Source: Pseudomonadota bacterium
Lineage (GTDB): Bacteria; Pseudomonadota; Gammaproteobacteria; Burkholderiales; JABEVD01
DNA length: 64,000 nt
Assembly (NCBI GenBank): GCA_021802545.1
Contig: JAJZRS010000006.1
Coordinates: forward strand, 9,308 to 73,307
Reading direction: 5' to 3'
A program made the position numbers and the translations under genes. This document shows, one piece after another, positions 2,105 through 61,421 of this stretch. The notes beneath the pieces are model-generated. The model saw nothing but the letters and a program-made list of their open reading frames with translations, had not been told where the DNA came from and searched no databases. Each line of letters begins with the position of its first letter. Position 1 is the first letter of the stretch.

Positions 2105-2968
2105 ATGACCATGAAGCATAGCGACGAACTGATCCAGACCCATCCTTCGCTCGGCATTTTCAGGCTGGCTGCGCTTTCCGCATGCAGCGACGGTGCGCTA
2201 GACGAAGAGACGCTGGAGAACATGTTCGAACAAGTGGAAAGCGGCGCGCTCGCCGGCCTGTCGCCGCTCGACGCCTGGGGGGAGATGCGGCCTGGCCTCA
2301 TGGCGCAGAAGCCTTCCAACATGCTGAGCGCACTTTATGCGTGCGGCGCGCTGCAGGAAGTGCTGCCCGAAGTGTCCGCGCTGTTCGGCGTTCCCCAGAT
2401 CGCGGACGATCCGCCCCAGGTCGATATCGGCCTTCATCTGCTGCGCGTGCTGGACCAGGCTGCATCGCACAATGCGCCGCTCTCGGTGCGCTTTTCGGCG
2501 CTCGTCATGAATGTCGGCAAATCGGATTCCCCGCCCGAGCATCTGCCCATCCATTACCGCCACGTCGAACGCGGCCGCCCCAGGATAGAATCGATCTGCA
2601 GGCGCTTCGCCCTGCCTGAAGACTGCCTCGATCTCGCGCTGCTTGCGCTCCAAGAATGCGAACGCGTGCACAGGGTGTCCGAGGTGCGCGCAGGTCCGAT
2701 AGCGGACATGCTGGAGCGGCTCGACGCGTTCGACAATAGAAAGCGCTTCGACCTATTGATGATGCTATGCGCATGCGATTTCCTGGCCTACGGAAAGCAG
2801 GCAAATTATCCCAAGTCAGCCCTGCTTTACGATACGCTGCATGCCTGCTCTGGCATCGACGGGAAGCGGATGGCGCAGGGTTTTCCGCAGGCGGAAGCCA
2901 GGGACGCGCTGCGCCAGGCGAGGGCTGCCGCCATCGCCAAAGCGCTGCGTTCGGAACGCTGGTCCTGA
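2105..2968 (+). CDS. CCA-adding-enzyme (tRNA nucleotidyltransferase) paralog lacking the polymerase head and with a degenerate HD motif
   Basis: It aligns by eye to the neck/body/HD-tail of E. coli Cca (LPEVSALFGVPQ..DIGLHLL..VRFSALV..LDLALLA..HRV..RFDLL). The N-terminal ~140-aa pol-beta domain is missing. The HD residues are replaced (PPQVDIGLH for WHPEIDTGIH; VMNVGK for CHDLGK). Confidence 0.65.
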   Translation: MTMKHSDELIQTHPSLGIFRLAALSACSDGALDEETLENMFEQVESGALAGLSPLDAWGEMRPGLMAQKPSNMLSALYACGALQEVLPEVSALFGVPQIADDPPQVDIGLHLLRVLDQAASHNAPLSVRFSALVMNVGKSDSPPEHLPIHYRHVERGRPRIESICRRFALPEDCLDLALLALQECERVHRVSEVRAGPIADMLERLDAFDNRKRFDLLMMLCACDFLAYGKQANYPKSALLYDTLHACSGIDGKRMAQGFPQAEARDALRQARAAAIAKALRSERWS

Positions 2969-4379: not shown

Positions 4380-4415
4380 CCTTTTGGTGCTATGATCCCG
4401 CCGAAAGGAGGAGAA

Positions 4416-5255
4416 ATGAATCACGTCGAAGACCTGCTCAAAAGCCTTTTCATCATGGCATCCCTCGTCGAGGCGAGAGACCCTTACACCGGCGGGCATC
4501 TCTGGCGCGTGGCCCAGTTCTCCCAGCTTCTCGCAGCCAAGGCGGGATTGCCGCCCAGAGACATCGCCAGGATAGCGCTCGGCGGTTTCCTGCACGACCT
4601 GGGCAAGATCGGGGTGCCGGATGCCATCCTCAACAAGCCTGACAGGCTGACCGATGAGGAATTCGAAGTGATCAAGACCCATCCTTCCGTCGGAGGCAGG
4701 CTCTTGTCGGGCCATCCGCTCGCTGAATTGGCCAGGGACGCCGTCCTTTCCCATCACGAGCGGCCGGACAGGCAGGGGTACCCCAATGGCCTTGGCGCGG
4801 ATGAAGTCTCGGTCGATGCGAAGATCGTGGGGATAGCAGACGCATTCGATGCCATGACGAGCACCCGTCCCTACCGGCGCGGGATGGCGCTTGAGGCCGC
4901 GCTTTCCATTATCGAAAAATGCCTGGGAACCCAGTTCGACCTGGAACTGGGGAAACTGTTCCTGTCCATGGGAAGGGAAGGGGGGCTCGACCATGTCGTC
5001 GGGCATTCCGACGCAGGCATCCCGCTCCAGGAATGCCCGGAATGCGGGCCGACCATCGTCATCAGGCGCGACCAGGAGAACGGCGATTTCGTCTATTGCA
5101 GGAAATGCGGCTACAAGACGACGGTGATCAGGGAGGACGGAACCTTTTCCATCGCAGAGACGGACGATCACGGCAATGCGGAAGAGCTCGAGCCTGAAGT
5201 CGATGTCGCCCTGATCGACGAGCTCGTCATGGAAGCGGCAAGCGTCATCGGCTGA
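4416..5255 (+). CDS. HD-GYP domain c-di-GMP phosphodiesterase with C-terminal CxxC..CxxC zinc ribbon
   Basis: Motifs are GGHLWRV, FLHDLGKIGVPD and HHERPDRQGYPNGL. The C-terminus is CPECGP..(16)..CRKCGY. RBS AAAGGAGGAG precedes ATG 4416. Confidence 0.85.
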   Translation: MNHVEDLLKSLFIMASLVEARDPYTGGHLWRVAQFSQLLAAKAGLPPRDIARIALGGFLHDLGKIGVPDAILNKPDRLTDEEFEVIKTHPSVGGRLLSGHPLAELARDAVLSHHERPDRQGYPNGLGADEVSVDAKIVGIADAFDAMTSTRPYRRGMALEAALSIIEKCLGTQFDLELGKLFLSMGREGGLDHVVGHSDAGIPLQECPECGPTIVIRRDQENGDFVYCRKCGYKTTVIREDGTFSIAETDDHGNAEELEPEVDVALIDELVMEAASVIG

Positions 5256-5256
5256 T

Positions 5257-6717
5257 TCAGGTCGATATTTCCGGGTGCTTTTCCCTGACGAGATTGTCGA
5301 TCAGGTCCATAACCTCGTTGCTCGCGGATTCCGCACCCTGCATGGCCGAAATGATCTTGTCGTGCATTGAGGTTTTCGTCTTCCACTCGCCTTCCATGGC
5401 ATCCAGCATGCCGCGCACGCAGCCATGCACCCTGCGGTGCGGCTCGAGCAGCTTCCCGTAGGAGGGGAGTTTTCCGAATTTCTGCTTGCCTTCGCCTTCG
5501 TTGTACCATTTTCCCAGGCGGCAGTTGTCGTGGTCGACGCTGACCGCCCGCAGGCTTTCATCGTCGGCATGGTCGATCACGACATAGGCGCGCTGCTTGT
5601 AGACCACGTGGTCGACCTTGACCAGGGACGCGAAACTCAGATCCTGGACGTAGTTCGCGTTCGTCATGGTCTGGGTGGCCGATGCATAGAAGCTGTTGAA
5701 TCCGGACTCCATCTGCCCGATGACGGACTGAGAGGCATCCGCGCTCTCCTTCATTTCCTCCGAATCGGTCAGCATGGAGGCTGCGTCTTTCTGCAGGGTC
5801 AGCATGATCTCGCCTATCGATTCGGAAGCATGCTTGGTGTTTTCGGCAAGCTTCCTCACTTCGTCGGCGACGACGGCGAATCCTCGGCCGGCTTCGCCGG
5901 CCCTGGCCGCTTCGATCGCTGCATTCAATGCGAGCAGGTTGGTCTGGTCGGCGATCGAATTGATCAGCTCGACAGCCTGGCTGATTTCTATGCTTCTCGC
6001 GTTGAGCCTCTCGATCGTGTCGCTCGCCCTGTGGATGCGCTCTGCGATGCCGTTGAGGCGCTCGACAGCTTCCTTCACCAGTTCCTTGCCCGTGTCGGCA
6101 TCGGCGCTGGTCTTGCTTGCAAGCTCCGTGACTTCTTCCATCTTGTTGGTGATGACCTTGAGGTCGTCCTGGCTCGAGGCGAGATTGCGCAGCAGATTGG
6201 AGGTGTTGAGATGGTGGGCGCGCGAGACGAGGCTGGACATCATGGCGTCTCTTTTCTGTTCGGCCATCCCGTCGAGCAGGACGTTCTGGTTCTCGAGCCC
6301 CTTCCTGAAGTCGCCGTGCAGGCCGACAGGCATGGTATGGCGGTAGAATTTCCCTTCCAGGTTGCTCCTGAAGGTGGTTTCCTGCTCCCTGAAGAAGGCG
6401 CCGAGCTGGTCGAGCATGTCGTTCAGGTCCCAGCATAGGCGCCCGATCTCGTTCTTGTCTGACACGCCGGTGATGCGGCTGTTGAAGCGCCCCTGGGCAA
6501 CCTCAGAGATCAGATTGTCCAGCTTGGGCAGGGGATCGAGCCAGCGCCTCACCATGATTCCGCCCGCCGCCGCCGCGATGGCAGTGACCAGGGGGAAGGC
6601 GATCAATATCGGGCTGAAGGCGTGAAAGGCGTAGGCGATGGGAAGTACCGGAAGGGTGAGGGCAGGGGCCGCCCAGAGCAGTCGAACGATGTTAGAGCGT
6701 ATGGATGAATTCGTCAT
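5257..6717 (-). CDS. Methyl-accepting chemotaxis protein: membrane hairpin-HAMP-MA domain-C-terminal CZB zinc-binding domain
   Basis: It has the highly conserved MA hairpin [38 protein letters not shown]. The N-terminal hydrophobic hairpin has no periplasmic domain. The C-terminal [10 protein letters not shown]...HRRVHGC is CZB-like. Confidence 0.9.
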
Positions 6718-7210
6718 AGCTCATTCCTTTTTGCGAAAGAATATCGAGGAGAAGCTTCGTGGAAGCGGCGATGGCGTCCTTTGCGCCTGCGCGCTGCTCT
6801 TCTTCGAGCATGATGCGGTAGACATCGCCCATGGTCTTGACGACGGCAGGATCGGGCTTCCTTCTCACCGAAAAGTAGCCGGTGATGTTGCCCTGATGGT
6901 CGAGCATGGGGGTGACATTGGCGAACACCCAGTAGAAGCTGCCGTCCTTTGCCAGGTTCTTGACGTATGCGCTGCATTCGTCGCCCGAGCTGATGACATC
7001 CCAAAGCAGCTTGAAAACGGCGCGCGGCATGTCGGGATGGCGGATGATGTTGTGCTGCGTGCCGAGCAGCTCTTCCTCGCTGTAGCCCGAGAATTCGATG
7101 AAAATTCGGTTCCCGTATGTGATCCTGCCTTTCAAGTCGGTCATCGAAACGATGAAATCGTTTTCGCGCATGACCTTCTCGACCCCCGTCGGTGATATCT
7201 TGTTCTTCAT
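6692..7210 (-). CDS. Stand-alone Aer-type PAS (FAD-type) sensor protein
   Basis: The segment [65 protein letters not shown] closely resembles the Aer PAS domain. It overlaps the MCP start by 26 nt. The start was set at ATG 7210. Confidence 0.85.
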
Positions 7211-7295
7211 GACCCCTCTTCCTGGAGTTGAATTCGGCATTTTTGCCTACTACAAGGATACCCTATTTTCGTCTAAAGAGTTAATATCATTATCT

Positions 7296-7709
7296 ATGTG
7301 GATACAGAAGGAAATCGGGCTTGAACCGAAGGCGAGGGGCTTTCATCTCGTCACCGGCGAGATACTCGGCGAGCTGCCCGAAATCGGGAATTTCAGGGTA
7401 GGCATGATGAATCTCTTCATCCTGCACACGTCTGCATCGCTCACGCTCAACGAGAACGCGGATCCCACGGTCAGGCGGGATTTCGAGACCTGTTTCGACA
7501 GGATTGTTCCTGAAGGGGACTATTTCCACAGCGACGAAGGGCTGGACGATCTGCCTGCGCACGTCAAGTCAAGCCTGCTCGGCTCAAGCGTCTACATTCC
7601 GATTTCGAACGGCAGGCTGAGGCTGGGCGCATGGCAGGGGATCTATCTGTGCGAGCACAGGAATCATGGAGGCACCCGCCGGATCGTCGTCACCCTGCAC
7701 GGGGAATAG
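7296..7709 (+). CDS. yjbQ: YjbQ/UPF0047 family (secondary thiamine-phosphate synthase) protein
   Basis: The sequence MWIQKEI.L..K.RGFHLVT.EI...LPE......G..NLFILHTSASLTLNENADP.VR.D....RIVPE...Y.H..EG.DD.PAHVKSSLLG.S..IPI..G.L.LG.WQGIYL.EHR is the typical family signature. The product is 137 aa. Confidence 0.85.
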   Translation: MWIQKEIGLEPKARGFHLVTGEILGELPEIGNFRVGMMNLFILHTSASLTLNENADPTVRRDFETCFDRIVPEGDYFHSDEGLDDLPAHVKSSLLGSSVYIPISNGRLRLGAWQGIYLCEHRNHGGTRRIVVTLHGE

Positions 7710-9388: not shown

Positions 9389-9524
9389 GAATGCTCCTGC
9401 TGCAAGACACGCAGCACTTTATCAAAAAATGCGCATCGCGTCGCCTGCGTCACGCTTAATAAAAAGGTAATACTGTACCTATAGAATGTGTCCAAAGCTC
9501 TCATACGCGCGCAAAGGAATACAC

Positions 9525-11381
9525 ATGAGCGACAGCCAGTCCGAGACGGAATGCGCAACTCTCAGCCTACAGGATATTCCCGTCATGAAGATCCTTTTCG
9601 AAAACGACATGCCGCAAGGCGGCGAGCTGGACCGCCTGGTCAAGTTCGACCTGCTCGACGAGATCATCGATAAGTGCGCGCTTTCCGCCGTATTCCAGCC
9701 CATCATCGACATGAAAACGGGCCTTGTCATGGGATACGAGGGGCTGATTCGGGGGCCATCCGACAGCCCGCTGCATGCGCCCATTGCGCTGTTGAGGACG
9801 GCCGAGTCCTGCGGCAGGCTTTTCGAGCTCGAGCGCCTTTGCAGGAAAGTGACCCTCGAGAGCTTCGTGAGGCAGAAGCTCAACGGACAGCTTTTCCTCA
9901 ACATCAGCCCGGAATGCCTGATGGAGCCGCTTTTCAAGGACGGCGAGACGCTCAGGCTGGTCAAGGAGCTTGGCATCAACCCCGACAGAATCATCATCGA
10001 ACTCACCGAAGCGCATCCGACCTACGACTACTGCCTGCTGAGGGATGCGGTCAACCATTACCGCGAGATGGGGTTCAGGGTGGCGATCGACGATTTGGGC
10101 GAGGGATTCTCGAATCTCAGGCTCTGGTCGGAGTTGCGGCCCGATTTCGTCAAGATCGACATGCATTTCATCCAGGGCATCAACCAGGACGCAGTGAAGC
10201 ACCAGTTCGTCAGATCGATCCAGCAGATTGCAGAGAAAACCGAAACGAGCGTCATCGCCGAAGGCATCGAGACCATGGCCGAGCTTGCCGTGATCAAGAA
10301 TCTCAATATTGCGCTCGGACAGGGCTACCTGATCGGCAGGCCGAACGCCAATCCGGTGATCGTGGCTACTCCCGAAATTTCGAGGGCCCTGACCAAATCC
10401 TCGGGCTTGAGGGGGCCGCTCAACAACAGCGCGACGGCGAAAAAAATTCTCAAGAAAGTGTCTCCCGTCACGCCGACCACGCGCAATCAGGACGTCTTCC
10501 AGATATTCACTGAAAACCCCGATCTTTATTCGCTCCCTGTCGTCGACAACATGATTCCCGTCGGGCTCCTGAAGCGGCATCATGTCATCGAGAATTTCGC
10601 GAAGCCGTTCGTGCACGAGCTTTTCGGCAAAAAGTTTTGTGCGACGATGATGGATCCTTCTCCCATGGTCATCGATCAGAACATGGGGTTGCACGATCTC
10701 AGCAACCTGATCGTCTCCTCGGGAAGGCACCATCTCCTGGACGGCTTCGTCATCACAGACCAGGGAAAATATGTCGGCATGGGAAGCGCGCACGACCTGA
10801 TGCGCGAAATCACCGAAATCCAGATCAACATCGCAAGATATGCGAATCCTTTGACCCAGCTGCCGGGGAATGTGCCGATCAACGAGCACATTGACATGCT
10901 GCTCGCTTCTGAAGTGCCGTTCTGCGCCTGCTATTGCGATCTGGACAATTTCAAGCCTTTCAACGACGTCTACGGCTACAGGCGCGGAGACGACATGATC
11001 CAGTTTTGCGGCGAGGTGCTGTCGGACATGTGCGATTTCGAGCGGGATTTCATCGGGCATATCGGCGGCGACGACTTCATCATCCTTTTCCAGAGCCAGG
11101 ACTGGCAAAAGAGATGCAGCGACGCGCTGGTCAATTTCGACGCCATGCGCATCCGCTTCTTCTCCGACGAGCACAGAAGGGATAAGGGATTCACCACGCA
11201 GGACAGGAGAGGCGAAAGGGAGTTCGTGCCGCTTACCAGCCTCTCGATCGGCGCTGTGCCGGTTCTGCCCGGCATGTACCACACACACCATGAAATCGCA
11301 GAGGCGGCCGCCGTGGCCAAGAAGCACGCGAAGAAAACATCGGGAAGCAGCCTCTTCGTCGAGAGGCGCAGAGCGTCCTAG
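9525..11381 (+). CDS. EAL - CBS pair - degenerate GGDEF (GGDDF) signalling protein
   Basis: EAL-domain motifs are FQPI..(E)GLIRG, ELTE, DDLGEGFSNL, KID and EGIE..QGYL.GRP. The middle is CBS-like. The C-terminus is YCDLDNFKPFND.YGY.RGD..I...IGHIGGDDFIILF. The start is ATG 9525 (MSDSQ). Confidence 0.85.
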   Translation: MSDSQSETECATLSLQDIPVMKILFENDMPQGGELDRLVKFDLLDEIIDKCALSAVFQPIIDMKTGLVMGYEGLIRGPSDSPLHAPIALLRTAESCGRLFELERLCRKVTLESFVRQKLNGQLFLNISPECLMEPLFKDGETLRLVKELGINPDRIIIELTEAHPTYDYCLLRDAVNHYREMGFRVAIDDLGEGFSNLRLWSELRPDFVKIDMHFIQGINQDAVKHQFVRSIQQIAEKTETSVIAEGIETMAELAVIKNLNIALGQGYLIGRPNANPVIVATPEISRALTKSSGLRGPLNNSATAKKILKKVSPVTPTTRNQDVFQIFTENPDLYSLPVVDNMIPVGLLKRHHVIENFAKPFVHELFGKKFCATMMDPSPMVIDQNMGLHDLSNLIVSSGRHHLLDGFVITDQGKYVGMGSAHDLMREITEIQINIARYANPLTQLPGNVPINEHIDMLLASEVPFCACYCDLDNFKPFNDVYGYRRGDDMIQFCGEVLSDMCDFERDFIGHIGGDDFIILFQSQDWQKRCSDALVNFDAMRIRFFSDEHRRDKGFTTQDRRGEREFVPLTSLSIGAVPVLPGMYHTHHEIAEAAAVAKKHAKKTSGSSLFVERRRAS

Positions 11382-12542
11382 TTACCAATCCTCTTTGGAA
11401 TCAGTCTCGAAGAAGTCCAGGTGCTCGGCGAGCGCAGGCTTGAGGGACTCGCGTTCGAGCGGCTGTTCGAATGGCGCTTCCATTTTCTTCCTGAAATACA
11501 GGAATGCGCCTGCGCCGATGCCGAGCAGGGCGAGGGCTGCCGCAAGCCAGATCCAGGGGAATGAACTGTCTGCTTTTTCGGCCTTTGCATTGGCGAGCAT
11601 CCTGTCCGCAATCGCGACCTTTCTTCTCAGGTCTGAAAGATTCGCTTCCAGCGTTTTGATCTGCGACTGGAGCTGAAGCAGCTGGACCGTCTGGCTGTCT
11701 GCCTTGGCCACCAGCTGCTCTTCGGTGCGGCTCATATCCACGGCAGCTTTCGGCCCAGGCGCCGCTTCCTGTTTCGGCGCTTCCGACACGATGGCGAGCC
11801 GGAAGGCCGGCTTTTCGACTTTTGGCTTGACTTCAGGAGGCTTGACCTCGGGCGCCTTCGGCTGAGGCGCATGGGCCTTGGCCGCCACCTTTGCTTCGGG
11901 CGCTTTCGGGCCGATGTAGGGAATGCGCAGCTTCGATCCGGCCTCGAGGTGGTTGGGAGAGAGCTCCGGGTTTTCCCTCAGCACGGAAGCGACGAAACGC
12001 CTTTGCGCCATGGTGCTGTAGGGATAGAAATCGTGAGCGATGCCGGACAAGGTATCGTTCTGCCTGACCGTGAGCAGCGTGCCTTCGAATTTCCTGGGCT
12101 GGACGACTTTTTCGGCAGGCTTCGCTTCGATGCGCCTGATCGGGTTGGCGGCAACGGGCGAAACAGGCGCGCTGACAGGATCGAGAAAGGCGGTGAACGC
12201 CTTCTCTACGGTGACGCTGCTGCATCGCAGCTTGAGCTTGAGCGAGACGATGGGTTCGTTGATTCTCTGCGCCGTCGAGATCTTGACGATGCGCGGGCCA
12301 GCCGTGCCGAGCACGTCGAGGCGCGCCGTCTTGATCTGGAACAGTCCGTCGCTGGAAGGAGATGGATCGAGCGCGACGCACGCGGCATCGATCGATTCGC
12401 CATTCGAAGGATTGATGGCGATCATGGCCCTGAACGGCTCGCCGAGATGGGAATCAACCTGCATTTCGCCGATTTCCATCGCGCAGGCGCAGCCTGAGTA
12501 GGCGAGGAGGAAGACGAGCGCTTTCAGTTTTGCCTGACGCAT
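11382..12542 (-). CDS. FimV/HubP-family N-terminal-domain protein (mini-FimV) with LysM-like motif, coiled coil and C-terminal TM anchor
   Basis: It has a signal-like N-terminus and the FimV N-domain IGEMQVDSHLGEPFRAMIAI. A LysM-like block follows (TVRQNDTLSGIA....ENPEL.PNHLEAGSKLRIP). The rest is a P/K/A-rich spacer, a coiled coil and the TM segment WIWLAAALALLGIGAGAFLYF. Confidence 0.75.
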   Translation of the reverse strand: MRQAKLKALVFLLAYSGCACAMEIGEMQVDSHLGEPFRAMIAINPSNGESIDAACVALDPSPSSDGLFQIKTARLDVLGTAGPRIVKISTAQRINEPIVSLKLKLRCSSVTVEKAFTAFLDPVSAPVSPVAANPIRRIEAKPAEKVVQPRKFEGTLLTVRQNDTLSGIAHDFYPYSTMAQRRFVASVLRENPELSPNHLEAGSKLRIPYIGPKAPEAKVAAKAHAPQPKAPEVKPPEVKPKVEKPAFRLAIVSEAPKQEAAPGPKAAVDMSRTEEQLVAKADSQTVQLLQLQSQIKTLEANLSDLRRKVAIADRMLANAKAEKADSSFPWIWLAAALALLGIGAGAFLYFRKKMEAPFEQPLERESLKPALAEHLDFFETDSKEDW

Positions 12543-12586: not shown

Positions 12587-14215
12587 TCAGATCTTGAATC
12601 TCGATACCGATTCCTGGAGCTTGACGGCAAGCAGTTCCAGCTGATGGAGCGCCTGGGAAGTCTCGCCAATCGAGGTGGAATTCTCCTTCGCAAAGCCCGC
12701 GATCCTTTCGACGCTTTGCGCGATCTCGTGGCTCGCAGTGCTTTGCTCCTGCGTCGCGCTGACCATGGAACGGATCTTCTCGAGCGTGTTGAGCGCCCCT
12801 TCATTGATCTTGGCGAGCGATTCGGACGCTTCGTTCGTGAGCGAGACGCCCGTGGAAACTTCCCGGCTGCTCGTGTCCATGATGGAGACGGCATGCTCGA
12901 TTTCCTTGCAGAATTCCTCGATCATGCTGGCGATGTCGGTCGTCGCATTGCCTGTCCGCTCCGCGAGTTTCCTGACTTCGTCGGCCACGACGGCAAATCC
13001 TCTGCCCTGTTCGCCCGCCCTGGCCGCTTCGATGGCGGCGTTGAGCGCAAGCAGATTGGTTTGATCGGCGATTTCCTTGATGACCATGACGATCTTGCCG
13101 ATTTCGTTGGAACGGTGCTCGAGCGAGGAAATGAGCTGAGCCGATTCCTTGACGTAACCTGCGACCTTCGTCAGTTCTTCGGCCGCGTTGGTGGCGACCT
13201 TCTGCCCCGCCTTGGACAGCTCCCGCGCGGTATTGGCGATCTCTTCCGTGTCAGTTGCGCTCTGCGCGACTTCCCTGATCTTCGTGCTGATGCCTTCGAC
13301 GCTCATCGAAGTGGACATGGCAGCGGAACTCTGCTGATTGGAGCTTTCCGAAATCCTGGAAGCGGAGCTTGCAAGCTGGGTGGCCGATTGGGAGACATCG
13401 TCCGCATAGTCATGGACCTGCCGCACGATTTTCTGGAAGTTTTCGGCGAGCGCATTGAAGGCCTTCGCTGCCTGGCCGATCTCGTCATTGCTTTCGACCT
13501 CGACGCGCTGGGTGAGGTCGCTGTCCTGCTGCATGCGCATCATGACGGCCTGGAGGTTCTTTGCAGGCTTGATGATCGTGCGGATGAACCAGCCGATGAC
13601 GAAGAAAAGCAGCACCTGGAGGGCAAGCTGGCCGATCCAGAGTCCCATGTTCACCCGCTTGAGTCCCGCATAATCTTCGGACAGATCGAGCACGATGCTC
13701 GCTGCGCCGTTCGAGCTGCCGACTTTGACATGGTGGCACATCAGGCAGTTCGTTCCCCTGAAGTTGGTGCTTTCGATGAACGGGATCACCGCCCTCAAGG
13801 CGGGTTTTCCGTCAGGAAGCGTCGCCCGCTGGAAAATAGGTTTTTCGGAGGCGAGCGCCTGTCTGTCGATGTCGTCCCTGGCCTGCTCTTCGGGCAGACC
13901 CGGCCCGAACTGGTCGGATACCTGCTTGGCGCGGATGATCCTGAGTTCGGCAACGCCGTCGGAGTCGCCCATTTTCCTGACCATCAGCTTGCGATTGGCA
14001 GGATCGGAGATCATTCCGGTCACCATGAGCATGTTCATGCCGTTGAGCAGGCCGTCAGAGGATATCTGGGCGCGATGCTCGGCCTCCTTGAGCATCCTCT
14101 TCTCGAAATGGTCCATCGTCCATCGCTGAGATACCGCAAGCACGATGATCAAGAAGCCCTGTATCAGAATTTGCAGCTTGGCCTGGATACTCAGAGAGTT
14201 CCAAATTTTTTTCAT
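12587..14215 (-). CDS. Methyl-accepting chemotaxis protein with periplasmic DUF3365/Tll0287-like c-type-heme sensor domain
   Basis: A CLMCH heme-binding motif (nt 13733-13747) lies between TM1 and TM2. This is followed by HAMP and then the MA hairpin [37 protein letters not shown]. Confidence 0.88.
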
Positions 14216-14233
14216 GGTCCCTCCCCAGTGTTT

Positions 14234-16075
14234 TTATACTGGCTCAGCCACCCTTTTCGACTGCGTGAAAAGCGTGGACTTCGTCGCCGATTCCCCGGTA
14301 AGCAATTCTTCCATGTCGAGGATGAGGACGATTGAGCCGTCGCCTGAAAGGGTTGCGCCTGCAACGCCTTTCGGCTTGATCCCCTTGAGGGGCTTGATGA
14401 CAACATCTTCCCTGCCGACGAAATTGTTCACGGCCAGGATGAAGGATTTTCCGCCCGATTTCATGAGCACCCCGTAGACCGGCGGGGCATCCTGAGGCCA
14501 GTCGATCATTTCGGCAAGCGCCCTGATCGGGAGCACTTCGTCCCGCACGACCATGGTGGCGCGTCCCGATACCGATTGAACCTGTGCCGGATTGATCGGG
14601 ATGATTTCCCTGACCATGGCGAGCGGAACGGCAAATGACTGTTCGCTGACCTGTACGATCAGGACGGGAAGTATGGCGAGCGTGAGCGGCAGGTAGATCG
14701 AGAAAGTGGATCCCTTGCCCGGCATGGACGAGATTTCTATCCTGCCGTTGAGCTTCTGGATATTGGTCTTGACGACATCCATTCCGACGCCACGTCCGGA
14801 GACGTTGGAGATCTGATCCTTGGTCGAAAATCCTGGCATGAAGATGAGGCCGAGGCTCTGCTGCTCGTCCATGCTGTTGATCGCTTCCTCGTCGGCGATG
14901 CCTTTTTCGAGCGCCTTGCGCCTCAGCGCGGCTGCATTCATCCCGCGGCCGTCGTCCGAGATCTCGATGACGATATGGTCTCCGGCCTGAACAGCCGAGA
15001 GCTTGACGATGCATTTTTCAGGTTTTCCTGCGAGAACCCGCTCCTCGGGGGTTTCGATGCCGTGATCGACGGCATTCCTGATGAGATGCACCAGCGGATC
15101 GGAGAGCTCCTCGATCATGGTCTTGTCGAGTTCGGTTTCCTCGCCGGAAATTTCGAGTTCCATTTCCTTGCCGAGCTGCCTTGCCAGATCGCGCGCCATT
15201 CTCGGGTATTTCTGGAACAGGCGGCCGACAGGCTGCATCCTGGTCTTCATGACCGCATTTTGCAATACGCCGACAAGCAGATCGAGTTCGTTGACGGCTT
15301 CGTCCAGGTCCCTCAGAGTCTGCTGATCATTCTTGCCCTGAAGTATGTTGTTTCTGAGGCAGTTCAGGCGGTTCTTCGTCAGCCCGATCTCGCCCGACAA
15401 GTTGAGCACCTGGTCGAGCCTGGCCGTGTCGATCCTGATCGTGGTTTCCTTCTCGGCGGCGCCCTTGTCCGAATCGCGCCGCGGTGCCTTGGGCGCTTCC
15501 GCTTCGCGCCTTGGGGGCTTGGGCGCCTCAACCCGAGGCTCGGCCGGTTTTGAAGGCTGGGAGACGGCAGGCACGCCGCTGACGCCCTGGTAGAGCGCTG
15601 CCCAGTCTGGTCCTCCGGAAGCGGGAGCTGCTGCAGGCGCTGGCGTTTCAACCTTCGGGGCGGCAGAAGAGGCAGGTGGGGCTTCACCCTTGACGATGGC
15701 CGAGAGCGTGGCGAGCAGCGCAGGATCGGCCGGCTCGGGCTGGGAAAAACGGGAGAGCGAGCTGAACATGTCGCGCACGATGCCGGTGGCCGCGAAAATC
15801 GCGTCCATGATGGCCGGCGTCATCGCCAGTTCGCCGTTCCTCAGCTTGTCGAACAGGTTCTCGGTGAGATGGCAGAGCTTCACCATTTCATTGGCATTGA
15901 GGAAACCCGCGCCACCCTTGATGGTGTGGAAATTCCTGAAGATGTCGTTGAGCAGCTTCTTGTCGCTCGGATCCCTTTCAAGGTCGACGAGCTTGTTGTC
16001 GACATCGGACAACAGATCGCCAGCTTCTTGCAGAAAATCCTGCAGCATTTCCTCGTTGCCAGCAAAGTCGTTCAT
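14234..16075 (-). CDS. cheA: Chemotaxis histidine kinase CheA (no recognisable P2 domain)
   Basis: Domains seen are Hpt P1 (FRNFHTIKGGAGF), P3 (TIRIDTARLD.V.NL.GE), HATPase N/G boxes (HLIRNAVDHGIE, DDGRGM, GFSTK, SGRGVGMDVV) and a CheW-like P5. Residues ~115-215 form an Ala/Pro-rich linker. Confidence 0.95.
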   Translation of the reverse strand: MNDFAGNEEMLQDFLQEAGDLLSDVDNKLVDLERDPSDKKLLNDIFRNFHTIKGGAGFLNANEMVKLCHLTENLFDKLRNGELAMTPAIMDAIFAATGIVRDMFSSLSRFSQPEPADPALLATLSAIVKGEAPPASSAAPKVETPAPAAAPASGGPDWAALYQGVSGVPAVSQPSKPAEPRVEAPKPPRREAEAPKAPRRDSDKGAAEKETTIRIDTARLDQVLNLSGEIGLTKNRLNCLRNNILQGKNDQQTLRDLDEAVNELDLLVGVLQNAVMKTRMQPVGRLFQKYPRMARDLARQLGKEMELEISGEETELDKTMIEELSDPLVHLIRNAVDHGIETPEERVLAGKPEKCIVKLSAVQAGDHIVIEISDDGRGMNAAALRRKALEKGIADEEAINSMDEQQSLGLIFMPGFSTKDQISNVSGRGVGMDVVKTNIQKLNGRIEISSMPGKGSTFSIYLPLTLAILPVLIVQVSEQSFAVPLAMVREIIPINPAQVQSVSGRATMVVRDEVLPIRALAEMIDWPQDAPPVYGVLMKSGGKSFILAVNNFVGREDVVIKPLKGIKPKGVAGATLSGDGSIVLILDMEELLTGESATKSTLFTQSKRVAEPV

Positions 16076-16085
16076 TTTATTCCCC

Positions 16086-16889
16086 TCAGAAGCCCAGGCT
16101 TTCCAGAAGTTCGTCCACCTGCGCCTGGTTGGTCACGACATCGACTCTTCCATCCGCCTTGATCACAGGGCCGTTCATCAGTCCATCAGGAACATCTTCC
16201 TTTTTGGGCATGTTTTCGATCAACAATCCGATGAGCTGCGATTCTACAGACCTGACGATGTCCACCACCTTCTTGATGACCTGTCCTGTCAGATCCTGGA
16301 AATCCTGGGCCATCATGATTTCCGTCAGCTGGGCATTGGTGGCCTTCACCTGGCCGGGCACATCGCCGAGATAATCGCGGGTCTTCACAGCCAGCGACTT
16401 GAATTCCTCGACGGAAAGCTTGTTGTCGAACGCCTTCTGCCATTCTTCGGAAAGCGCACTGGCGCGATCGCCTATTTTTTCCTGGAGGGGCCTTGCGAGC
16501 TCGATGGAATTCAGCACGCGTTCGGCTGCCTGCTGGGTCAGATTGGCGATGTAGGCGAGCCTGTCGTTCGCATCCGGTACCGAATTGACGACCTTCTCGA
16601 TGGATTTGTCATAACCGAGTTCGCGTAGCGCATTGTAGAGCGTGCGCGTGAGCTGCCCGACCTGCGCGAAAACAGGCGCGGTGTCCTCGCCGCTTTTCTG
16701 CACGGCGGCCATTTCCTGGTGCTGCTGTGAGACGGAGTCGAACAGCGCTTCCAGATCAGCCGAATCCTGCTCTGCCGGCTTCTCTTCCTCAGGTGCGGGT
16801 TGGACTTGTGGAGTAGAAGCTTCCGCGTTTCCGGCCTGTACGATCGAATCGAACAGCGCTTCCAGGTCTTCGGAGTCTTCCATTGTCAA
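16086..16889 (-). CDS. cheZ: CheY-P phosphatase CheZ
   Basis: It has the catalytic block [16 protein letters not shown] and the C-terminal CheY-binding peptide [17 protein letters not shown] 4-nt overlap with the cheY stop is present. Confidence 0.92.
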
Positions 16890-17275
16890 ATCCCCATCGT
16901 CTTGAAAATCTTGTTCAATTTCTCGTCCAGAACTGCAGCCGTGAAAGGCTTGACGATATAGCCATTCGCGCCTGATTGGGCCGCCTCGATGATGTTTTCC
17001 TTCTTGGCTTCAGCGGTCACCATCAAAACTGGAAGGTGCTTGAGCGTGGGTTCCTTCCTGATCGACCTCAAAAGCTCGATGCCGCTCATGTTGGGCATGT
17101 TCCAGTCGGATACGACGAACTCGAATCCGCCGCCTTGCAGTTTTTTCAGGGCATCCAGCCCGTCCTCGGCTTCGGTCACGTTGGGAAAGCCAAGTTCTTT
17201 CAGAAGATTGCGGATGATTCTGCGCATCGTCGAAAAATCGTCGACCACCAGAATTTTCAGATCGGCCTTCGCCAT
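16886..17275 (-). CDS. cheY: Chemotaxis response regulator CheY
   Basis: It is a 129-aa single REC domain, [12 protein letters not shown]...[12 protein letters not shown]...R......[15 protein letters not shown]...GA.GY.VKPFT. Confidence 0.95.
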
Positions 17276-17349
17276 AAAGTCTCCATGATCAACCCGTTGC
17301 GCGCCTGCGCAAAATGGGGATTATTCCGAATAAGGGTGTCTTTGGTCAA

Positions 17350-18282
17350 TTATCTTTCCAGATACTGCCGCATCGTTTCGGCCAGGACCGCAGGATTGAA
17401 TTTCGCGACATAGTCGTCCACGCCGACCGTTTTTCCCATCGCCCTGTTCGCTTCAGAAGAAAGCGAAGAGTGCATGATGACCGGAATGCCCGAAAAGCGC
17501 TGGTCCGATTTGATGTTGCGGGTCAGGACATAGCCGTCCATTTCGGGCATCTCGGCATCGACCAAAATCAGCCTGAGCCTGTCGTGCAGCGGCCCTTCCT
17601 TTTCGAGCGCTGCGAGGCCCTGGAGCTTGTCCCAGGCCTCCCTGCCGTTGTTTGCCTGATAGTATTTGACGCCAAGCTTGTCGAGCACCTGGGTGATCTC
17701 CTTGCGGGCGACCATGGAGTCGTCCGCGAAAAAGATCGTTGCTTCGCCGTCCGTCTGCACAGGCGTCACGCTGGGAATGTCCGGCTCGCCGAATGCCTGC
17801 ACGAGGATCTGCTCGACGTCGAGAACCGAAACGAGCCTGCCGTCTTCGAGTTCGGTGACCGAAGTGATGAGGCCTTCGTTTCCCGTCAGCATGGTTTCGG
17901 GAGACTTCATTTTTTCCCAGTCGACGCGGATGATCCGGTCGACGCTTTCCACCAGAAAGCCCTGCGTCTGGCGGCTGTACTCGGTCACCATCATGGTTTC
18001 TCCGACGCCCCGCCTGTCGATATTGAGAAAACTGGCCAGGTTGAGGACAGGGATGATGTTGCCCCTGAGCGAGATGATCCCGACCACGCCCGTGTGCATG
18101 TTGGGCGTTTTGGTGATCGGCGGGGTTTTCGTCACTTCCCTGATCTTGAACACGTTGATGCCGAAGATTTCGTTCGTGCCGAGCGAGAACAGCAGGATTT
18201 CCATCTTGTTCGACCCTGCCAGGGTGGTGCGCGCGTCGATGCTCGCCAGAAGTGTGGTGTCTTGATTGTTGCCGAATTCCAT
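17350..18282 (-). CDS. cheV: CheV (CheW-like domain + receiver domain), copy 2
   Basis: The N-terminal CheW-like domain is LFSLG..EIFGINVFK.REV. The C-terminal REC is FFADDS...R.......D.EMPEMDGY.LT..IK. Confidence 0.9.
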   Translation of the reverse strand: MEFGNNQDTTLLASIDARTTLAGSNKMEILLFSLGTNEIFGINVFKIREVTKTPPITKTPNMHTGVVGIISLRGNIIPVLNLASFLNIDRRGVGETMMVTEYSRQTQGFLVESVDRIIRVDWEKMKSPETMLTGNEGLITSVTELEDGRLVSVLDVEQILVQAFGEPDIPSVTPVQTDGEATIFFADDSMVARKEITQVLDKLGVKYYQANNGREAWDKLQGLAALEKEGPLHDRLRLILVDAEMPEMDGYVLTRNIKSDQRFSGIPVIMHSSLSSEANRAMGKTVGVDDYVAKFNPAVLAETMRQYLER

Positions 18283-18292
18283 CTTGTTTCTC

Positions 18293-19231
18293 CTACGCGA
18301 GCCTGCGCTTCAAGGCGGCTGCAAGCTTGTGGGGCTCGAATTTGGATACGTATTCGTCCACGCCGACAGATTGTCCAAGCTGCTGGTTCGATGTGCCGGA
18401 TAGGGAGGAGTGCATGATGACGGGGATGCCGGCGAAGCGGTGATCGCTCTTGATCATCTTGGTCAGGAGATAGCCGTCCATTTCAGGCATTTCGACGTCG
18501 GTGAGGACCAGCTGGATGAGATCCTTCACCTGCGTGTGGGTTGCTTCGGCGCGGTTCGCGAGATTTTGCAATTCGTCCCAGGCTTGCTTGCCGTTCACGG
18601 CGCTCATGTACTCGACCCCCATCGCCTTGAGGGTGGACTCGATCTGATGCCTGGCCACCGAGGAATCATCCGCGAAAAAGATCGTGCGCTTGGAATTCAA
18701 CGGTTCGATGCCCACGAAAAGGTGGCTGTCGTCGAACCGGCTGGTTTCGGAGAGGATCTTTTCGACGTCGAGCAGCATGACGAGGCGGCCGTCATCGAGT
18801 TCGGTCACGGCAGTGACGAGGCCGCCCATTCTTGCCGTCAGCATTTCCGGCGGAACGCGCATGGCCGACCAGTCGAGCCTGAGGATGATGTCGACCCCTT
18901 CGACCAGAAACCCCTGGGTATGGCCGTTGTATTCGGTGACGATCAGGATTTCTGGCTTTTTTTCCGTCTGGATGCCTGCGTATTTGGCGATGTCGACGAC
19001 CGGGACGAGGACGCCTCTCAGGCTCACCATGCCCTCGACGGCCTCAGGCATGTCCGGAGCGCGGGTGATTGCGGGAGCGCGCATCACTTCCCGAACCTTG
19101 AACACGTTGATGCCGAAGCATTCGTTTCTCCCGCTTCTGAGATCCGTTCCCAGGGAAAACAGCAGAATCTCAAGCTTGTTCGTGCCCGCAAGTTTTGTGC
19201 GCGCATCGATATTTTTCAGTAGTTCGGACAT
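18293..19231 (-). CDS. cheV: CheV (CheW-like domain + receiver domain), copy 1
   Basis: It has the same architecture as the neighbouring cheV and is clearly paralogous (LEILLFSLG..FGINVFKVREV..; FFADDSSVAR..TDVEMPEMDGYLLT). Confidence 0.9.
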   Translation of the reverse strand: MSELLKNIDARTKLAGTNKLEILLFSLGTDLRSGRNECFGINVFKVREVMRAPAITRAPDMPEAVEGMVSLRGVLVPVVDIAKYAGIQTEKKPEILIVTEYNGHTQGFLVEGVDIILRLDWSAMRVPPEMLTARMGGLVTAVTELDDGRLVMLLDVEKILSETSRFDDSHLFVGIEPLNSKRTIFFADDSSVARHQIESTLKAMGVEYMSAVNGKQAWDELQNLANRAEATHTQVKDLIQLVLTDVEMPEMDGYLLTKMIKSDHRFAGIPVIMHSSLSGTSNQQLGQSVGVDEYVSKFEPHKLAAALKRRLA

Positions 19232-43126: not shown

Positions 43127-43364
43127 GATTTTCCCCTTGTCGAAAATGGCGAACTTTCTGTTCAGATTCGACAAAGCAACTAGCATGCCAAAAAATAACG
43201 ATTGATTATAAAAAGAATTTTATACGCGGGCAGGAAATTGTGCACCGAAAGGGTGCAAAATCAGATCGGCATTCATGCCGTTGAACCGGCAGCCTCCTGG
43301 AGACGCTATCGCCATTGTTGCTTTATTGTGTCAAACTGACCCTAAAAATCTATAAGGAGGGGAC

Positions 43365-49390: not shown

Positions 49391-49434
49391 CAACTGACGC
49401 GCCAATCGCATACCGTTAAAAAAGAGGGGAATGA

Positions 49435-52215: not shown

Positions 52216-52364
52216 GGTTGGCGATTAAACGGCCGGCATCCGAATCGTGCAACCGGCGCTTGCGCGCAACATCCCGTTCCAAGACGGCCGGAAGATTCGC
52301 TGCAATTTACAGCGCTGCAATCGCTGGGGTACGATGAATCCATTTGCAATTTGGAAAATTTCAC

Positions 52365-55292: not shown

Positions 55293-55724
55293 TATCAGTC
55301 GATCCAGTATTTATGCGGGTTTGAGGCCAACCGTGGCTCCGTGAAATCTAAATGCCCCTTTGTTTTTCAACCCTTTGTTGACTGTGCGGAGCGGCTGAAA
55401 TGTGTCCAATTCCGCTGTTCGCTTCGCCATGGGTTAACCGGCAGCTATCAGAATCGAGCCGACACACAATATGCCAACTCATTGGCAATGCCTCGGTCAA
55501 AGCATCCGGTCGCGGATTATTGCCAACCTTTTCAAGCCAGGCAATTGATAGGGGATATCGCACTAGCTCAAAAGTGGCTCTACCCGTACCTAGGCAAAAG
55601 AATGGTGATGACACCATCAAATAGCATTCCTACAGTTTCACAATTTGATGATCTCCTGTAGAGTCTGAAAGACGTTATTTCAACAAGCTCGAAACTGCCC
55701 ATCAAATTGGAGCGTTTGCCGCTA

Positions 55725-61345: not shown

Positions 61346-61421
61346 TGGCTCCCCGACCTGGACTCGAACCAGGGACCTGCGGATTAACAGTCCGTCGCTC
61401 TACCGACTGAGCTATCAGGGA
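61346..61421 (-). tRNA. tRNA-Asn (anticodon GTT)
   Basis: The 76-nt sequence is TCCCTGATAGCTCAGTCGGTAGAGCGACGGACTGTTAATCCGCAGGTCCCTGGTTCGAGTCCAGGTCGGGGAGCCA. It folds as a cloverleaf by eye with a 7-bp acceptor stem, anticodon loop CTGTTAA and an encoded CCA. It is very similar to E. coli tRNA-Asn. Confidence 0.95.

What the first reader, a model, noticed from the sequence alone, without database searches (positions are those of the whole stretch)
5257..7210. Aer-like aerotaxis receptor split into two translationally coupled genes and capped with a CZB domain
Gene 6692-7210 encodes a stand-alone PAS domain with the Aer-type FAD-PAS signature ([20 protein letters not shown]) plus a linker about the length of the Aer F1 linker. 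It ends 26 nt inside the next gene. That gene starts exactly at a membrane hairpin and continues through HAMP and the MA domain to a C-terminal chemoreceptor zinc-binding domain ([13 protein letters not shown]). In the MCP frame a TGA lies two codons upstream of its ATG, and AAGGA precedes the ATG. The split therefore looks designed rather than caused by a recent frameshift. A non-covalent PAS/HAMP pair combined with a zinc, HOCl or c-di-GMP-linked CZB output is an unusual dual-input receptor.
Basis: partly seen in the sequence, partly recalled or inferred. Interest (0 to 1): 0.55.

Follow-up and report, generated by a model that had tools for sequence, protein, structure and literature searches.

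The report
Two-gene flavin aerotaxis receptor with zinc domain
This is a real and strongly conserved two-protein version of the bacterial oxygen/energy-seeking receptor Aer, whose membrane half also carries a zinc-binding sensor domain, but the same design has already been catalogued in other bacteria, so it is a new member of a known kind and not a new kind of receptor.

Summary
On the minus strand, a 172-aa stand-alone PAS gene (6692-7210) ends 26 nt inside a 486-aa chemoreceptor gene (5257-6717). The chemoreceptor has a membrane hairpin, HAMP (probably a di-HAMP), a signalling domain and a C-terminal CZB zinc-binding domain.

The PAS protein's best solved-structure match is E. coli Aer PAS (8DIK, E=3e-29). 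It keeps every FAD-contact residue reported for CetB2.

The split is not a frameshift:
- More than 120 chemoreceptor clusters and 120 PAS clusters are all unfused.
- Every relative whose upstream DNA was available, down to about 38% identity, has the same gene pair.
- Most of these keep the 26-nt overlap. One has a 48-nt spacer with stops in all three frames.

This is a CetB/CetA-type bipartite energy-taxis receptor. The class was established in Campylobacter jejuni and in Magnetospirillum gryphiswaldense, where cetB and cetA also overlap. The supplement of the Magnetospirillum paper already lists CZB-bearing CetA paralogues (CetA1, CetA3), so "unusual" is overstated.

No one has tested what CZB does in such a receptor. 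A cheV-cheV-cheY-cheZ-cheA-mcp cluster lies about 6 kb away. Translational coupling is plausible but unproven.

Verdict: new member of a known kind, modest interest.

The parts
6692..7210 (-). cetB-like gene: a 172-aa stand-alone Aer-type PAS protein (stop codon TAA at 6692-6694)
   Evidence: ORF. Pfam PAS_3/PAS E=1e-14. Best PDB match is E. coli Aer PAS 8DIK, E=3e-29, 43% identity over 115 residues. The 120 best homologues are nearly all 172-173 aa and none is fused.
6866..7159 (-). PAS fold (residues about 18-115) with the FAD-pocket residues H53 N54 R57 H58 D60 F66 W70 N85 V99 R116
   Evidence: Seven of the eight CetB2-equivalent FAD residues are invariant in alignment A2 and V99 is V or I. 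They correspond to the FAD-contact residues of CetB2: H54 N55 R58 F67 W71 N86 V100 R117 (PMC12442639 section 2.5).
6695..6865 (-). Conserved C-terminal tail of the PAS protein (residues 116-172), about the length of the Aer F1 linker
   Evidence: Many tail positions are invariant or nearly invariant in A2 (Y131 M134 L135 E136 E138 A146 S150 K161 G162 Y165). A role in docking to the transducer is inference.
6692..6717 (-). 26-nt dual-coding overlap: the PAS C-terminus ...SYDEFIHTL* over the MCP N-terminus MTNSSIRS
   Evidence: The same 26-nt overlap occurs in L081, L082-84, L087, L088, L090 and L091. It is 23 nt in L086.
6725..6729 (-). Shine-Dalgarno-like AAGGA, 7 nt upstream of the MCP ATG and inside the PAS gene
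   Evidence: Read directly from the sequence. Function is inferred.
5257..6717 (-). cetA-like gene: a 486-aa transducer (stop codon at 5257-5259)
   Evidence: ORF. Pfam HAMP + MCPsignal + CZB. More than 120 homologous clusters of 484-492 aa share this architecture and none has a PAS domain.
6547..6690 (-). Membrane helical hairpin (residues about 10-57) with no periplasmic domain
   Evidence: Kyte-Doolittle windows above 1.6 centred on residues 19-48. AF2 helices 6-30 and 36-60.
6403..6555 (-). HAMP domain 1 (residues 55-105)
   Evidence: Pfam HAMP E=1e-5, 26.1 bits against a cut-off of 25. AF2 shows helix 62-74, a loop, then a helix from 90.
6247..6402 (-). Probable second HAMP (residues about 106-157), forming a di-HAMP unit with the first
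   Evidence: Residues about 66-157 match 5-17 tandem repeats in 1000-2500-aa proteins. Those proteins are poly-HAMP arrays of alternating HAMP and HAMP_2. AF2 shows a helix to 120, a loop 121-135, then a helix from 136. Residues 100-175 alone have no Pfam hit, so this part is inferred.
5611..6246 (-). Methyl-accepting signalling coiled coil (residues about 158-369), with the hairpin-tip motif [13 protein letters not shown] at residue 275
   Evidence: Pfam MCPsignal E=3e-34. PDB sequence hits to Tm1143, Tsr and Aer signalling domains. Residues 255-292 are invariant in A1.
5260..5610 (-). C-terminal CZB (chemoreceptor zinc-binding) domain. Pfam core is residues 370-435 (5413-5610). Zinc ligands are H370, C399, H427 and H431.
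   Evidence: Pfam CZB 49.9 bits against a cut-off of 29.4. Motif match. All four ligands invariant in A1. AF2 gives a helical bundle over 370-480 with pLDDT 85-94.

Best explanation
The locus encodes a CetB/CetA-type bipartite energy- or aerotaxis receptor. The 172-aa PAS protein (CetB-like) is predicted to bind FAD non-covalently and to report the redox state of the respiratory chain or cytoplasm. It is predicted to dock, one PAS per transducer subunit, on the membrane-proximal HAMP region of the 486-aa transducer (CetA-like). That transducer is anchored by a helical hairpin and has no periplasmic sensor. The conformational signal would pass through a (di-)HAMP into a short methyl-accepting coiled coil. 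This coil controls a CheA kinase through CheW or CheV adaptors, and a cheV-cheV-cheY-cheZ-cheA-mcp cluster lies about 6 kb away. The transducer's C-terminus folds back as a CZB four-helix bundle with a 3His/1Cys zinc site. By analogy with TlpD and McpA, CZB gives a second cytoplasmic input (zinc availability, oxidants or redox) and sits next to the PAS docking region. The two genes are expressed from one operon, with the transducer start codon 26 nt inside the PAS gene, which probably keeps the two proteins co-produced. What is shown here: gene structure, domain content, conservation of cofactor and zinc-ligand residues, and conservation of the split and overlap. What is inferred: FAD and zinc binding, the PAS-HAMP contact, signal integration, translational coupling, and which CheA is used.
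For: Domain architecture. PAS most similar to E. coli Aer PAS (8DIK, E=3e-29). FAD-contact residues conserved. CZB ligands invariant. Split conserved: the 120 best MCP clusters (56-86% identity) have no PAS and the 120 best PAS clusters are nearly all 172-173 aa and unfused. A PAS gene lies directly upstream in every relative whose upstream DNA was available, down to about 38% identity: L081, L082-84, L085, L086, L087, L090, L091 and L001. Three junction types occur (26/23-nt overlap, 1-nt gap, 48-nt spacer with stops in all frames). Experimental precedent: C. jejuni CetA/CetB are co-transcribed, CetA has a helical hairpin, and CetB is peripheral and CetA-dependent (PMC2628428). In M. gryphiswaldense, cetB2 and cetA2 overlap, their products interact, CetB2 binds FAD, and AF2 models give 1:1 stoichiometry (PMC12442639). 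In that paper's AF2 models, the CZB of CetA1 and CetA3 lies adjacent to bound CetB (supplement). In the TlpD structure the C-terminal CZBs straddle the N-terminal MA helices (bioRxiv 10.64898/2026.01.16.699579). Che genes are in the window.
Against: No biochemical data exist for this protein pair. The PAS-transducer complex could not be modelled because no multimer tool was available. No significant RNA structure or promoter-like site supports coupling or defines the operon. Per Herz et al. (PMC12442639 section 2.1) no single MCP deletion, including those of the bipartite systems, severely impaired swim-halo formation and only the cetBA2 deletion gave a conspicuous phenotype, so the physiological weight of CZB-bearing pairs is unknown.
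Confidence: 0.78

Rival explanations
1. A single Aer gene was broken by a recent 1-nt frameshift or a sequencing error, making this a pseudogene or an artefact.
For: The two reading frames differ by +1. Together the two products recreate the Aer domain order.
Against: No fused form appears among the 120 best MCP clusters or the 120 best PAS clusters. The same two-gene arrangement is found in independent assemblies down to about 38% identity. Ferrovum has a 48-nt spacer with stops in all three frames. The MCP has its own ATG and Shine-Dalgarno-like sequence. The PAS C-terminus and the MCP N-terminus are each conserved as ends.
Confidence: 0.01
2. A programmed +1 ribosomal frameshift inside the 26-nt overlap makes some full-length fused Aer-like protein alongside the two separate products.
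For: The overlap length and its nucleotide sequence are strikingly conserved. The MCP frame is +1 relative to the PAS frame.
Against: No recognisable +1 slippery or stall motif is present at CUC-UAA-C (read from the sequence; this is my own judgement). Dual coding alone explains the nucleotide conservation. The Ferrovum and Methylicorpusculum relatives have no overlap, and Ferrovum has stops in all frames between the genes. Bipartite CetB/CetA proteins function as separate polypeptides (PMC2628428, PMC12442639).
Confidence: 0.02
3. The PAS protein and the MCP are merely neighbours. The PAS protein signals to something else, such as the c-di-GMP enzymes that often flank the pair, and the MCP senses only through CZB.
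For: GGDEF, EAL or HD-GYP genes flank the pair in the window and in L081, L085, L086 and L090. M. gryphiswaldense has an orphan CetB5 next to a CheY (PMC12442639 section 2.2).
Against: Strict adjacency, same strand and usually a 26-nt overlap across wide divergence. The transducer has a HAMP but no other input for it. The flanking genes are not conserved in Gallionella/Sideroxydans-type loci. These genomes are rich in c-di-GMP genes in any case.
Confidence: 0.05
4. The CZB domain is not a second sensory input. It is a structural, array-organising or localisation module, or a constitutive zinc-stabilised cap.
For: The TlpD C-terminus is required for polar localisation (PMC13001251 abstract; also discussed). 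About a third of the N-terminal-module relatives lack a detectable CZB (27 of 79), which shows the core works without it.
Against: All four zinc ligands, including the redox-reactive Cys, are invariant. In TlpD, McpA and DgcZ, CZB acts as a ligand- and oxidant-responsive regulator (PMC8262984; bioRxiv 10.64898/2026.07.03.735341).
Confidence: 0.14

Closest known systems
Magnetospirillum gryphiswaldense CetB3/CetA3 (MSR1_19630/MSR1_19620), and CetB1/CetA1
   Same: A stand-alone PAS protein of about 173 aa is encoded just ahead of a 2-TM transducer annotated MCPsignal + CZB + HAMP. The cetB and cetA genes overlap, with cetB first. AF2 models place CZB next to bound CetB (supplement of PMC12442639).
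   Different: CetA3 is longer (562 aa, class 44H) than the 486-aa protein here, whose coiled coil is shorter (about 28H by my length estimate, not formally classified). CetA1 also carries PilZ. The host is an alphaproteobacterium, whereas this one is betaproteobacterial. Sequence relatedness was not measured. Neither CZB-bearing pair has been characterised functionally.
M. gryphiswaldense CetB2/CetA2 and Campylobacter jejuni CetB/CetA (Tlp9/Aer2)
   Same: Bipartite Aer-like energy or aerotaxis receptors: a PAS(FAD) protein plus a hairpin-HAMP-MA transducer, co-transcribed, with interaction and FAD binding shown experimentally (PMC12442639, PMC2628428). The FAD-pocket residues are conserved here.
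   Different: Neither has a CZB domain. In C. jejuni the gene order is cetA then cetB with a 17-bp gap, and the CZB receptor (Tlp6) is a separate soluble protein (PMC9665402).
Escherichia coli Aer
   Same: It is the best structural-sequence match of the PAS protein (8DIK, E=3e-29, 43% identity), with the identical HNxxRHPDMP and YWV motifs. It shares the same overall domain order: PAS, linker, membrane hairpin, HAMP, MA.
   Different: Aer is one polypeptide and has no CZB. Only its MA region matches the transducer significantly.
Helicobacter pylori TlpD and Salmonella McpA (CZB chemoreceptors)
   Same: A C-terminal CZB with 3His/1Cys zinc ligands follows the MA hairpin. They are implicated in redox, oxidant, zinc and O2 taxis (PMC8262984; bioRxiv 10.64898/2026.01.16.699579 and 10.64898/2026.07.03.735341).
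   Different: TlpD and McpA are soluble and have no HAMP or membrane hairpin. Neither has a partner FAD-PAS protein.
Poly-HAMP / di-HAMP arrays (such as those of Pseudomonas aeruginosa Aer2; this example is from my own knowledge)
   Same: Residues about 66-157 align repeatedly to the roughly 90-aa HAMP + HAMP_2 units of poly-HAMP proteins.
   Different: Only one such unit is present here, and its second half does not reach Pfam significance on its own.

Membership tests
CetB/CetA-type bipartite energy-taxis receptor | The PAS sensor and the transducer are separate polypeptides encoded by adjacent co-oriented genes | tested here: met
   Conserved in every relative whose upstream DNA was available.
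CetB/CetA-type bipartite energy-taxis receptor | The transducer has an N-terminal two-helix membrane hairpin with no periplasmic ligand-binding domain, followed by HAMP and the MCP signalling domain | tested here: met
   Hydropathy, AF2 helices, Pfam HAMP and MCPsignal.
CetB/CetA-type bipartite energy-taxis receptor | The PAS protein is of the Aer/FAD type, with the FAD-contact residues conserved | tested here: met
   8DIK is the best PDB hit. H53 N54 R57 F66 W70 N85 R116 are invariant and V99 is V or I, matched against the CetB2 residue list.
CetB/CetA-type bipartite energy-taxis receptor | The PAS protein actually binds FAD | not testable with these tools
   Needs purified protein (UV/vis, LC-MS).
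CetB/CetA-type bipartite energy-taxis receptor | The PAS protein physically binds the transducer's HAMP region | not testable with these tools
   No multimer prediction or experiment was available. Supported only by precedent (PMC12442639, PMC2628428).
CetB/CetA-type bipartite energy-taxis receptor | The CetA-family HAMP signature residues defined by Elliott et al. 2009 | not tested
   The paper (PMC2612422) is not held and no reference CetA sequence was available.
Aer (single-chain aerotaxis receptor) | The PAS domain is covalently joined through the F1 linker to the membrane hairpin-HAMP-MA in one polypeptide | tested here: not met
   There are two ORFs in different frames, with a stop in the MCP frame upstream of its ATG. 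No fused relatives were found.
CZB domain (PF13682) | Profile match above the curated threshold | tested here: met
   49.9 bits against a gathering score of 29.4, E=4e-13, residues 370-435.
CZB domain (PF13682) | 3His/1Cys zinc-ligand motif Hxx[WFYL]...Cx[LFMVI]Gx[WFLVI]...HxxxH (the motif is recalled from Draper et al. 2011, my own knowledge) | tested here: met
   H370, C399, H427 and H431 match the pattern and are invariant in A1.
CZB domain (PF13682) | Binds zinc and responds to zinc or oxidants | not testable with these tools
   Needs metal analysis and mutants.
TlpD/McpA-type soluble CZB chemoreceptor | A cytoplasmic receptor without transmembrane segments | tested here: not met
   A membrane hairpin is present at residues about 10-57.
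di-HAMP / poly-HAMP unit | Two concatenated HAMP domains (HAMP + HAMP_2) | tested here: inconclusive
   Repeated phmmer matches of residues 66-157 to poly-HAMP proteins, and helix-loop-helix twice in AF2. However, the second half alone has no Pfam hit.

The most novel reading that the evidence does not exclude
In this receptor the trans-acting FAD-PAS protein and the cis CZB zinc/thiol sensor may sit side by side at the membrane-proximal end of the same coiled coil. They could then act as one integrated two-channel redox sensor: respiratory-chain redox through FAD, and cytoplasmic oxidant or zinc status through CZB. The CZB state would gate or bias PAS-to-HAMP signalling. The rigidly conserved 26-nt overlap would enforce co-production of the two subunits. 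Such a device could be a main way that gradient-dwelling, microaerophilic Gallionellaceae-type betaproteobacteria hold position at oxic-anoxic interfaces.
Probability: 0.25. Interest if true: 0.5.

Novelty: new member of a known kind. Interest (0 to 1): 0.27.

Why it matters
Bipartite Aer-like receptors and CZB chemoreceptors have each been studied separately as redox and oxygen sensors. What CZB does when it is built into a CetA-type transducer has not been tested anywhere. This family is abundant and tightly conserved in environmental betaproteobacteria, including relatives of iron oxidisers that live in steep O2 gradients. It is therefore a natural system for asking how two intracellular redox inputs are combined in one chemoreceptor. 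It also offers a clean, conserved case of a 26-nt dual-coding gene overlap for testing co-translation control. For annotation, the finding shows that the pair should be named a CetB/CetA-like bipartite receptor, not a broken aer gene.

Tried and rejected
Only L001 (Methylicorpusculum) was useful. L002 and L005 turned out to be periplasmic-domain MCP-CZB proteins with no PAS neighbour.
2. The structure search of the AF2 monomer against the PDB returned only generic MCP coiled coils and gave no CZB-specific insight.
3. Elliott et al. 2009 (CetA HAMP signature) and Draper et al. 2011 (CZB definition) are not held. The HAMP signature could therefore not be checked, and the CZB motif is quoted from memory.
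4. Folding the junction as RNA gave no more structure than shuffled sequence (z=-0.08), so there is no evidence that ribosomes must melt a masked Shine-Dalgarno sequence.
5. The promoter scan found no sigma-70-like site in 5000-7500, and the terminator-like hits were within the chance expectation.
6. P0249's contig was too short to show the upstream gene.
7. The frameshift-pseudogene and programmed-frameshift readings were considered and rejected (see the rival explanations).
8. Pfam on residues 100-175 alone gave no HAMP hit, so the di-HAMP call rests on indirect evidence.
Full report
**What is in the sequence**

On the minus strand, an ORF at 6692-7240 encodes a PAS protein. The ATG at 7210 gives a 172-aa product and is preceded by AGGAAGAGG.

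A second ORF at 5257-6717 encodes a 486-aa chemoreceptor. Its ATG (6717) lies 26 nt before the last base of the PAS stop codon (TAA, 6694-6692), and its frame is +1 relative to the PAS frame. In the MCP frame a TGA lies two codons before the ATG, and AAGGA (6729-6725) sits 7 nt upstream.

Pfam gives the following:
- The PAS protein hits PAS_3 and PAS at E=1e-14.
- The receptor hits HAMP at 55-105 (E=1e-5), MCPsignal at 232-364 (E=3e-34) and CZB at 370-435 (E=4e-13, 49.9 bits against a cut-off of 29.4).

Residues about 10-57 of the receptor are hydrophobic. AlphaFold2 (mean pLDDT 81) models them as two helices, 6-30 and 36-60. This is a membrane hairpin with no periplasmic domain.

**The PAS protein is Aer/CetB-like**

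Its best match among solved structures is the E. coli Aer PAS domain (8DIK, E=3e-29), followed by full-length Aer. Identity is 43% over 115 aligned residues.

Herz et al. list the FAD-contact residues of M. gryphiswaldense CetB2 as H54, N55, R58, F67, W71, N86, V100 and R117, and they showed F67, W71 and N86 to be essential (PMC12442639 section 2.5). The equivalent residues here are H53, N54, R57, F66, W70, N85, V99 and R116. All are invariant in an alignment of 20 relatives, except V99, which is V or I.

The roughly 55-residue tail after the PAS fold is also strongly conserved. It may be a functional docking element. That role is inference.

**The transducer**

The four CZB zinc ligands are H370, C399, H427 and H431. 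They fit the published motif, which I recall from memory, and the match was found. All four are invariant in 22 homologues.

I searched the N-terminal 175 residues against 1.8 billion representative proteins. This gave 900 hits at E<=1e-3 and 174 at E<=1e-10. Among 78 representatives of 440-560 aa plus the query itself, 78 of 79 have MCPsignal, 52 of 79 have CZB and none has PAS.

The same search matched residues about 66-157 to 5-17 tandem repeats in proteins of 1000-2500 aa. Pfam shows that these are poly-HAMP arrays of alternating HAMP and HAMP_2. The AF2 pattern is helix 62-74, loop, helix 90-120, loop 121-135, then a helix from 136. Taken together, this indicates that the "HAMP" is probably a di-HAMP unit. 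The second half alone gives no Pfam hit, so this remains an inference.

About 213 residues separate the end of the di-HAMP from the start of CZB. This implies a short signalling coiled coil, roughly 28 heptads by my estimate. It has not been formally classified.

**Is the split real and conserved?**

Yes. The 120 best MCP clusters (56-86% identity) come mainly from Burkholderiales, Nitrosomonadales, Gallionellaceae, Sideroxydans, Gallionella and Ferrovum MAGs. They are 466-503 aa long (mostly 484-492) and carry MCPsignal + CZB, with or without a detected HAMP and with no PAS. The 120 best PAS clusters (73-98% identity) are nearly all 172-173 aa (range 159-177) and none is fused.

Genomic context was retrieved for relatives at decreasing identity:

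| Locus | Relative and identity | Junction |
|---|---|---|
| L088 | the same contig family as the window | 26-nt overlap |
| L081 | 68% | 26-nt overlap |
| L086 | 63% | 23-nt overlap |
| L082-84 | 58% | 26-nt overlap |
| L087 | Gallionella, 56% | 26-nt overlap |
| L085 | Ferrovum, 59% | 48-nt spacer |
| L090 | about 44% | 26-nt overlap |
| L091 | about 39% | 26-nt overlap |
| L001 | Methylicorpusculum (gammaproteobacterial methanotroph), 38% | 1-nt gap |

In every case a PAS gene lies immediately upstream on the same strand.

The overlapping junctions read ...KG(M/L/V)SY(D/E)E(F/L)(I/V)xxx* over M(T/K)N(S/W/L)S(I/L).... The Ferrovum spacer has stop codons in all three frames. This excludes a sequencing error, a recent frameshift, and any obligatory read-through fusion.

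**What it is**

This is the CetB/CetA type of bipartite energy-taxis receptor. The precedents are:
- In C. jejuni the Aer domains are divided between CetB (PAS) and CetA (hairpin, HAMP, signalling domain). [quoted passage not shown]
- Such pairs had been found in 55 species by 2009 (Elliott et al. 2009, as cited in PMC2886117).
- In M. gryphiswaldense, cetB2 and cetA2 are overlapping genes. The proteins interact, CetB2 binds FAD (midpoint potential -274 mV), and the pair mediates an oxygen-repellent response (PMC12442639).

The supplement of that paper settles the novelty question. It records that CetA1 (MCPsignal-CZB-PilZ) and CetA3 (562 aa, 2 TM, MCPsignal-CZB-HAMP) carry CZB domains and are paired with CetB1 and CetB3 (175 and 173 aa). 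Three of the four cetBA operons consist of overlapping genes with cetB first. AF2 models place the CZB adjacent to the receptor-bound CetB.

It has not been studied functionally: the characterised pair, CetBA2, lacks CZB. A 2026 aerotaxis review treats bipartite receptors without mentioning CZB (PMC13401364). The only held paper that contains both "CZB" and "CetB" describes them as separate receptors of C. jejuni (PMC9665402).

**Likely mechanism**

Shown here: the gene structure, the domain content, the conserved cofactor and metal ligands, and the conserved pairing.

Inferred by homology and precedent: the PAS protein binds FAD and tracks electron-transport or cytoplasmic redox state. It docks 1:1 on the HAMP region of the transducer dimer. 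The signal passes through the (di-)HAMP to the coiled-coil tip and modulates CheA.

The TlpD crystal structure shows C-terminal CZB bundles straddling the N-terminal helices of the signalling domain. Here that would put CZB just below the HAMPs, beside the PAS docking site, which agrees with the Magnetospirillum AF2 models. CZB domains respond to zinc and to oxidants through the ligand cysteine (PMC8262984). They have recently been proposed to report external redox and O2 through the labile zinc pool (bioRxiv 10.64898/2026.07.03.735341). A dual-input redox receptor is therefore a reasonable reading, but how the two inputs are integrated is untested.

A plausible output pathway lies in the same window, all on the minus strand:
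- CheV (18293-19231) and a second CheV (17350-18282)
- CheY (16886-17275)
- CheZ (16086-16889)
- CheA (14234-16075)
- a conventional MCP (12587-14215)

**Translational coupling**

The overlap, the internal Shine-Dalgarno-like sequence, and the remarkable conservation of the 26-nt arrangement are all consistent with coupled or co-ordinated translation. There is no direct evidence for it. The junction RNA folds no better than shuffled sequence (z=-0.08). Relatives with a spacer (Ferrovum) or a 1-nt gap (Methylicorpusculum) show that the overlap is not essential. The nucleotide conservation is what dual coding alone would produce.

**Verdict**

It is overstated on rarity, and it mislabels CZB as an output. 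This locus is a new member of a known and already catalogued kind. It belongs to a large, well-conserved betaproteobacterial subfamily, which may include a di-HAMP. Interest is modest. The open question is what a CZB domain contributes inside a bipartite FAD-PAS receptor.

Noticed in passing
window 12587-19231 (minus strand): A chemotaxis gene cluster: two CheV (CheW-REC; 18293-19231 and 17350-18282), CheY (16886-17275), CheZ (16086-16889), CheA (14234-16075) and a HAMP-MCP with a large N-terminal region (12587-14215). It is followed by a FimV_N-domain protein (11382-12542). This is a likely signalling partner of the receptor pair.
   Followed up: partly
window 4392-5255 (+): A convergent HD_5/HD (HD-GYP-type) protein with a C-terminal LysW-like zinc ribbon. 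Its stop codon ends 1 nt from the MCP stop codon (5255 against 5257), which leaves no room for a terminator between the two genes.
   Followed up: no
window 9486-11381; L081 1696-3450 and 5533-6459; L085 5568-7382 and 1-841; L086 5543-9455; L090 1952-3166: Genes for c-di-GMP turnover or related sensing (EAL-CBS-GGDEF, EAL-GGDEF, GGDEF-hemerythrin, PAS-GAF-GGDEF, EAL-HDOD) repeatedly flank the PAS/MCP-CZB pair in several lineages. They do not do so in the Gallionella/Sideroxydans-type loci (L082-84, L087). This may simply reflect genomes rich in such genes.
   Followed up: partly
L082-L084 7586-8029: A stand-alone 147-aa CZB-only protein is encoded about 2 kb downstream of the pair in a Gallionellaceae-type locus.
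   Followed up: no
P0246, P0250, P0252, P0254 and similar proteins: Giant poly-HAMP proteins of 1000-2500 aa, with up to 18 HAMP and 18 HAMP_2 domains. Some end in GAF-HisKA-HATPase-REC. They are the best non-MCP relatives of residues 66-157 of the transducer.
   Followed up: partly
window 29588-33832, 52344-55262, 55707-58616 (+): Three very large multi-PAS(/GAF)-GGDEF-EAL proteins lie in one 64-kb window (1414, 972 and 969 aa). The last has an N-terminal SBP_bac_3 periplasmic binding domain.
   Followed up: no
window 41423-43186 (-): A single ORF combines a PP2C phosphatase domain with a Ser/Thr protein kinase domain.
   Followed up: no
window 47375-52134 (+): A secretin with a TPR (47375-49390) is followed by an 899-aa protein whose only Pfam hit is a C-terminal jacalin-like lectin domain (49435-52134).
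   Followed up: no
window 7211-7295: Only about 85 nt separate the divergent starts of the PAS gene and a YjbQ/UPF0047 gene (a 137-aa product by the gene call in L088). No sigma-70-like promoter match was found there.
   Followed up: partly
window 2105-2968 (+): A 287-aa ORF with no Pfam family at E<=1e-5. Whether it is a real gene was not examined.
   Followed up: no
window 61346-61421 (-): tRNA-Asn (GTT) is the only Rfam or ARAGORN RNA gene in the window.
   Followed up: yes
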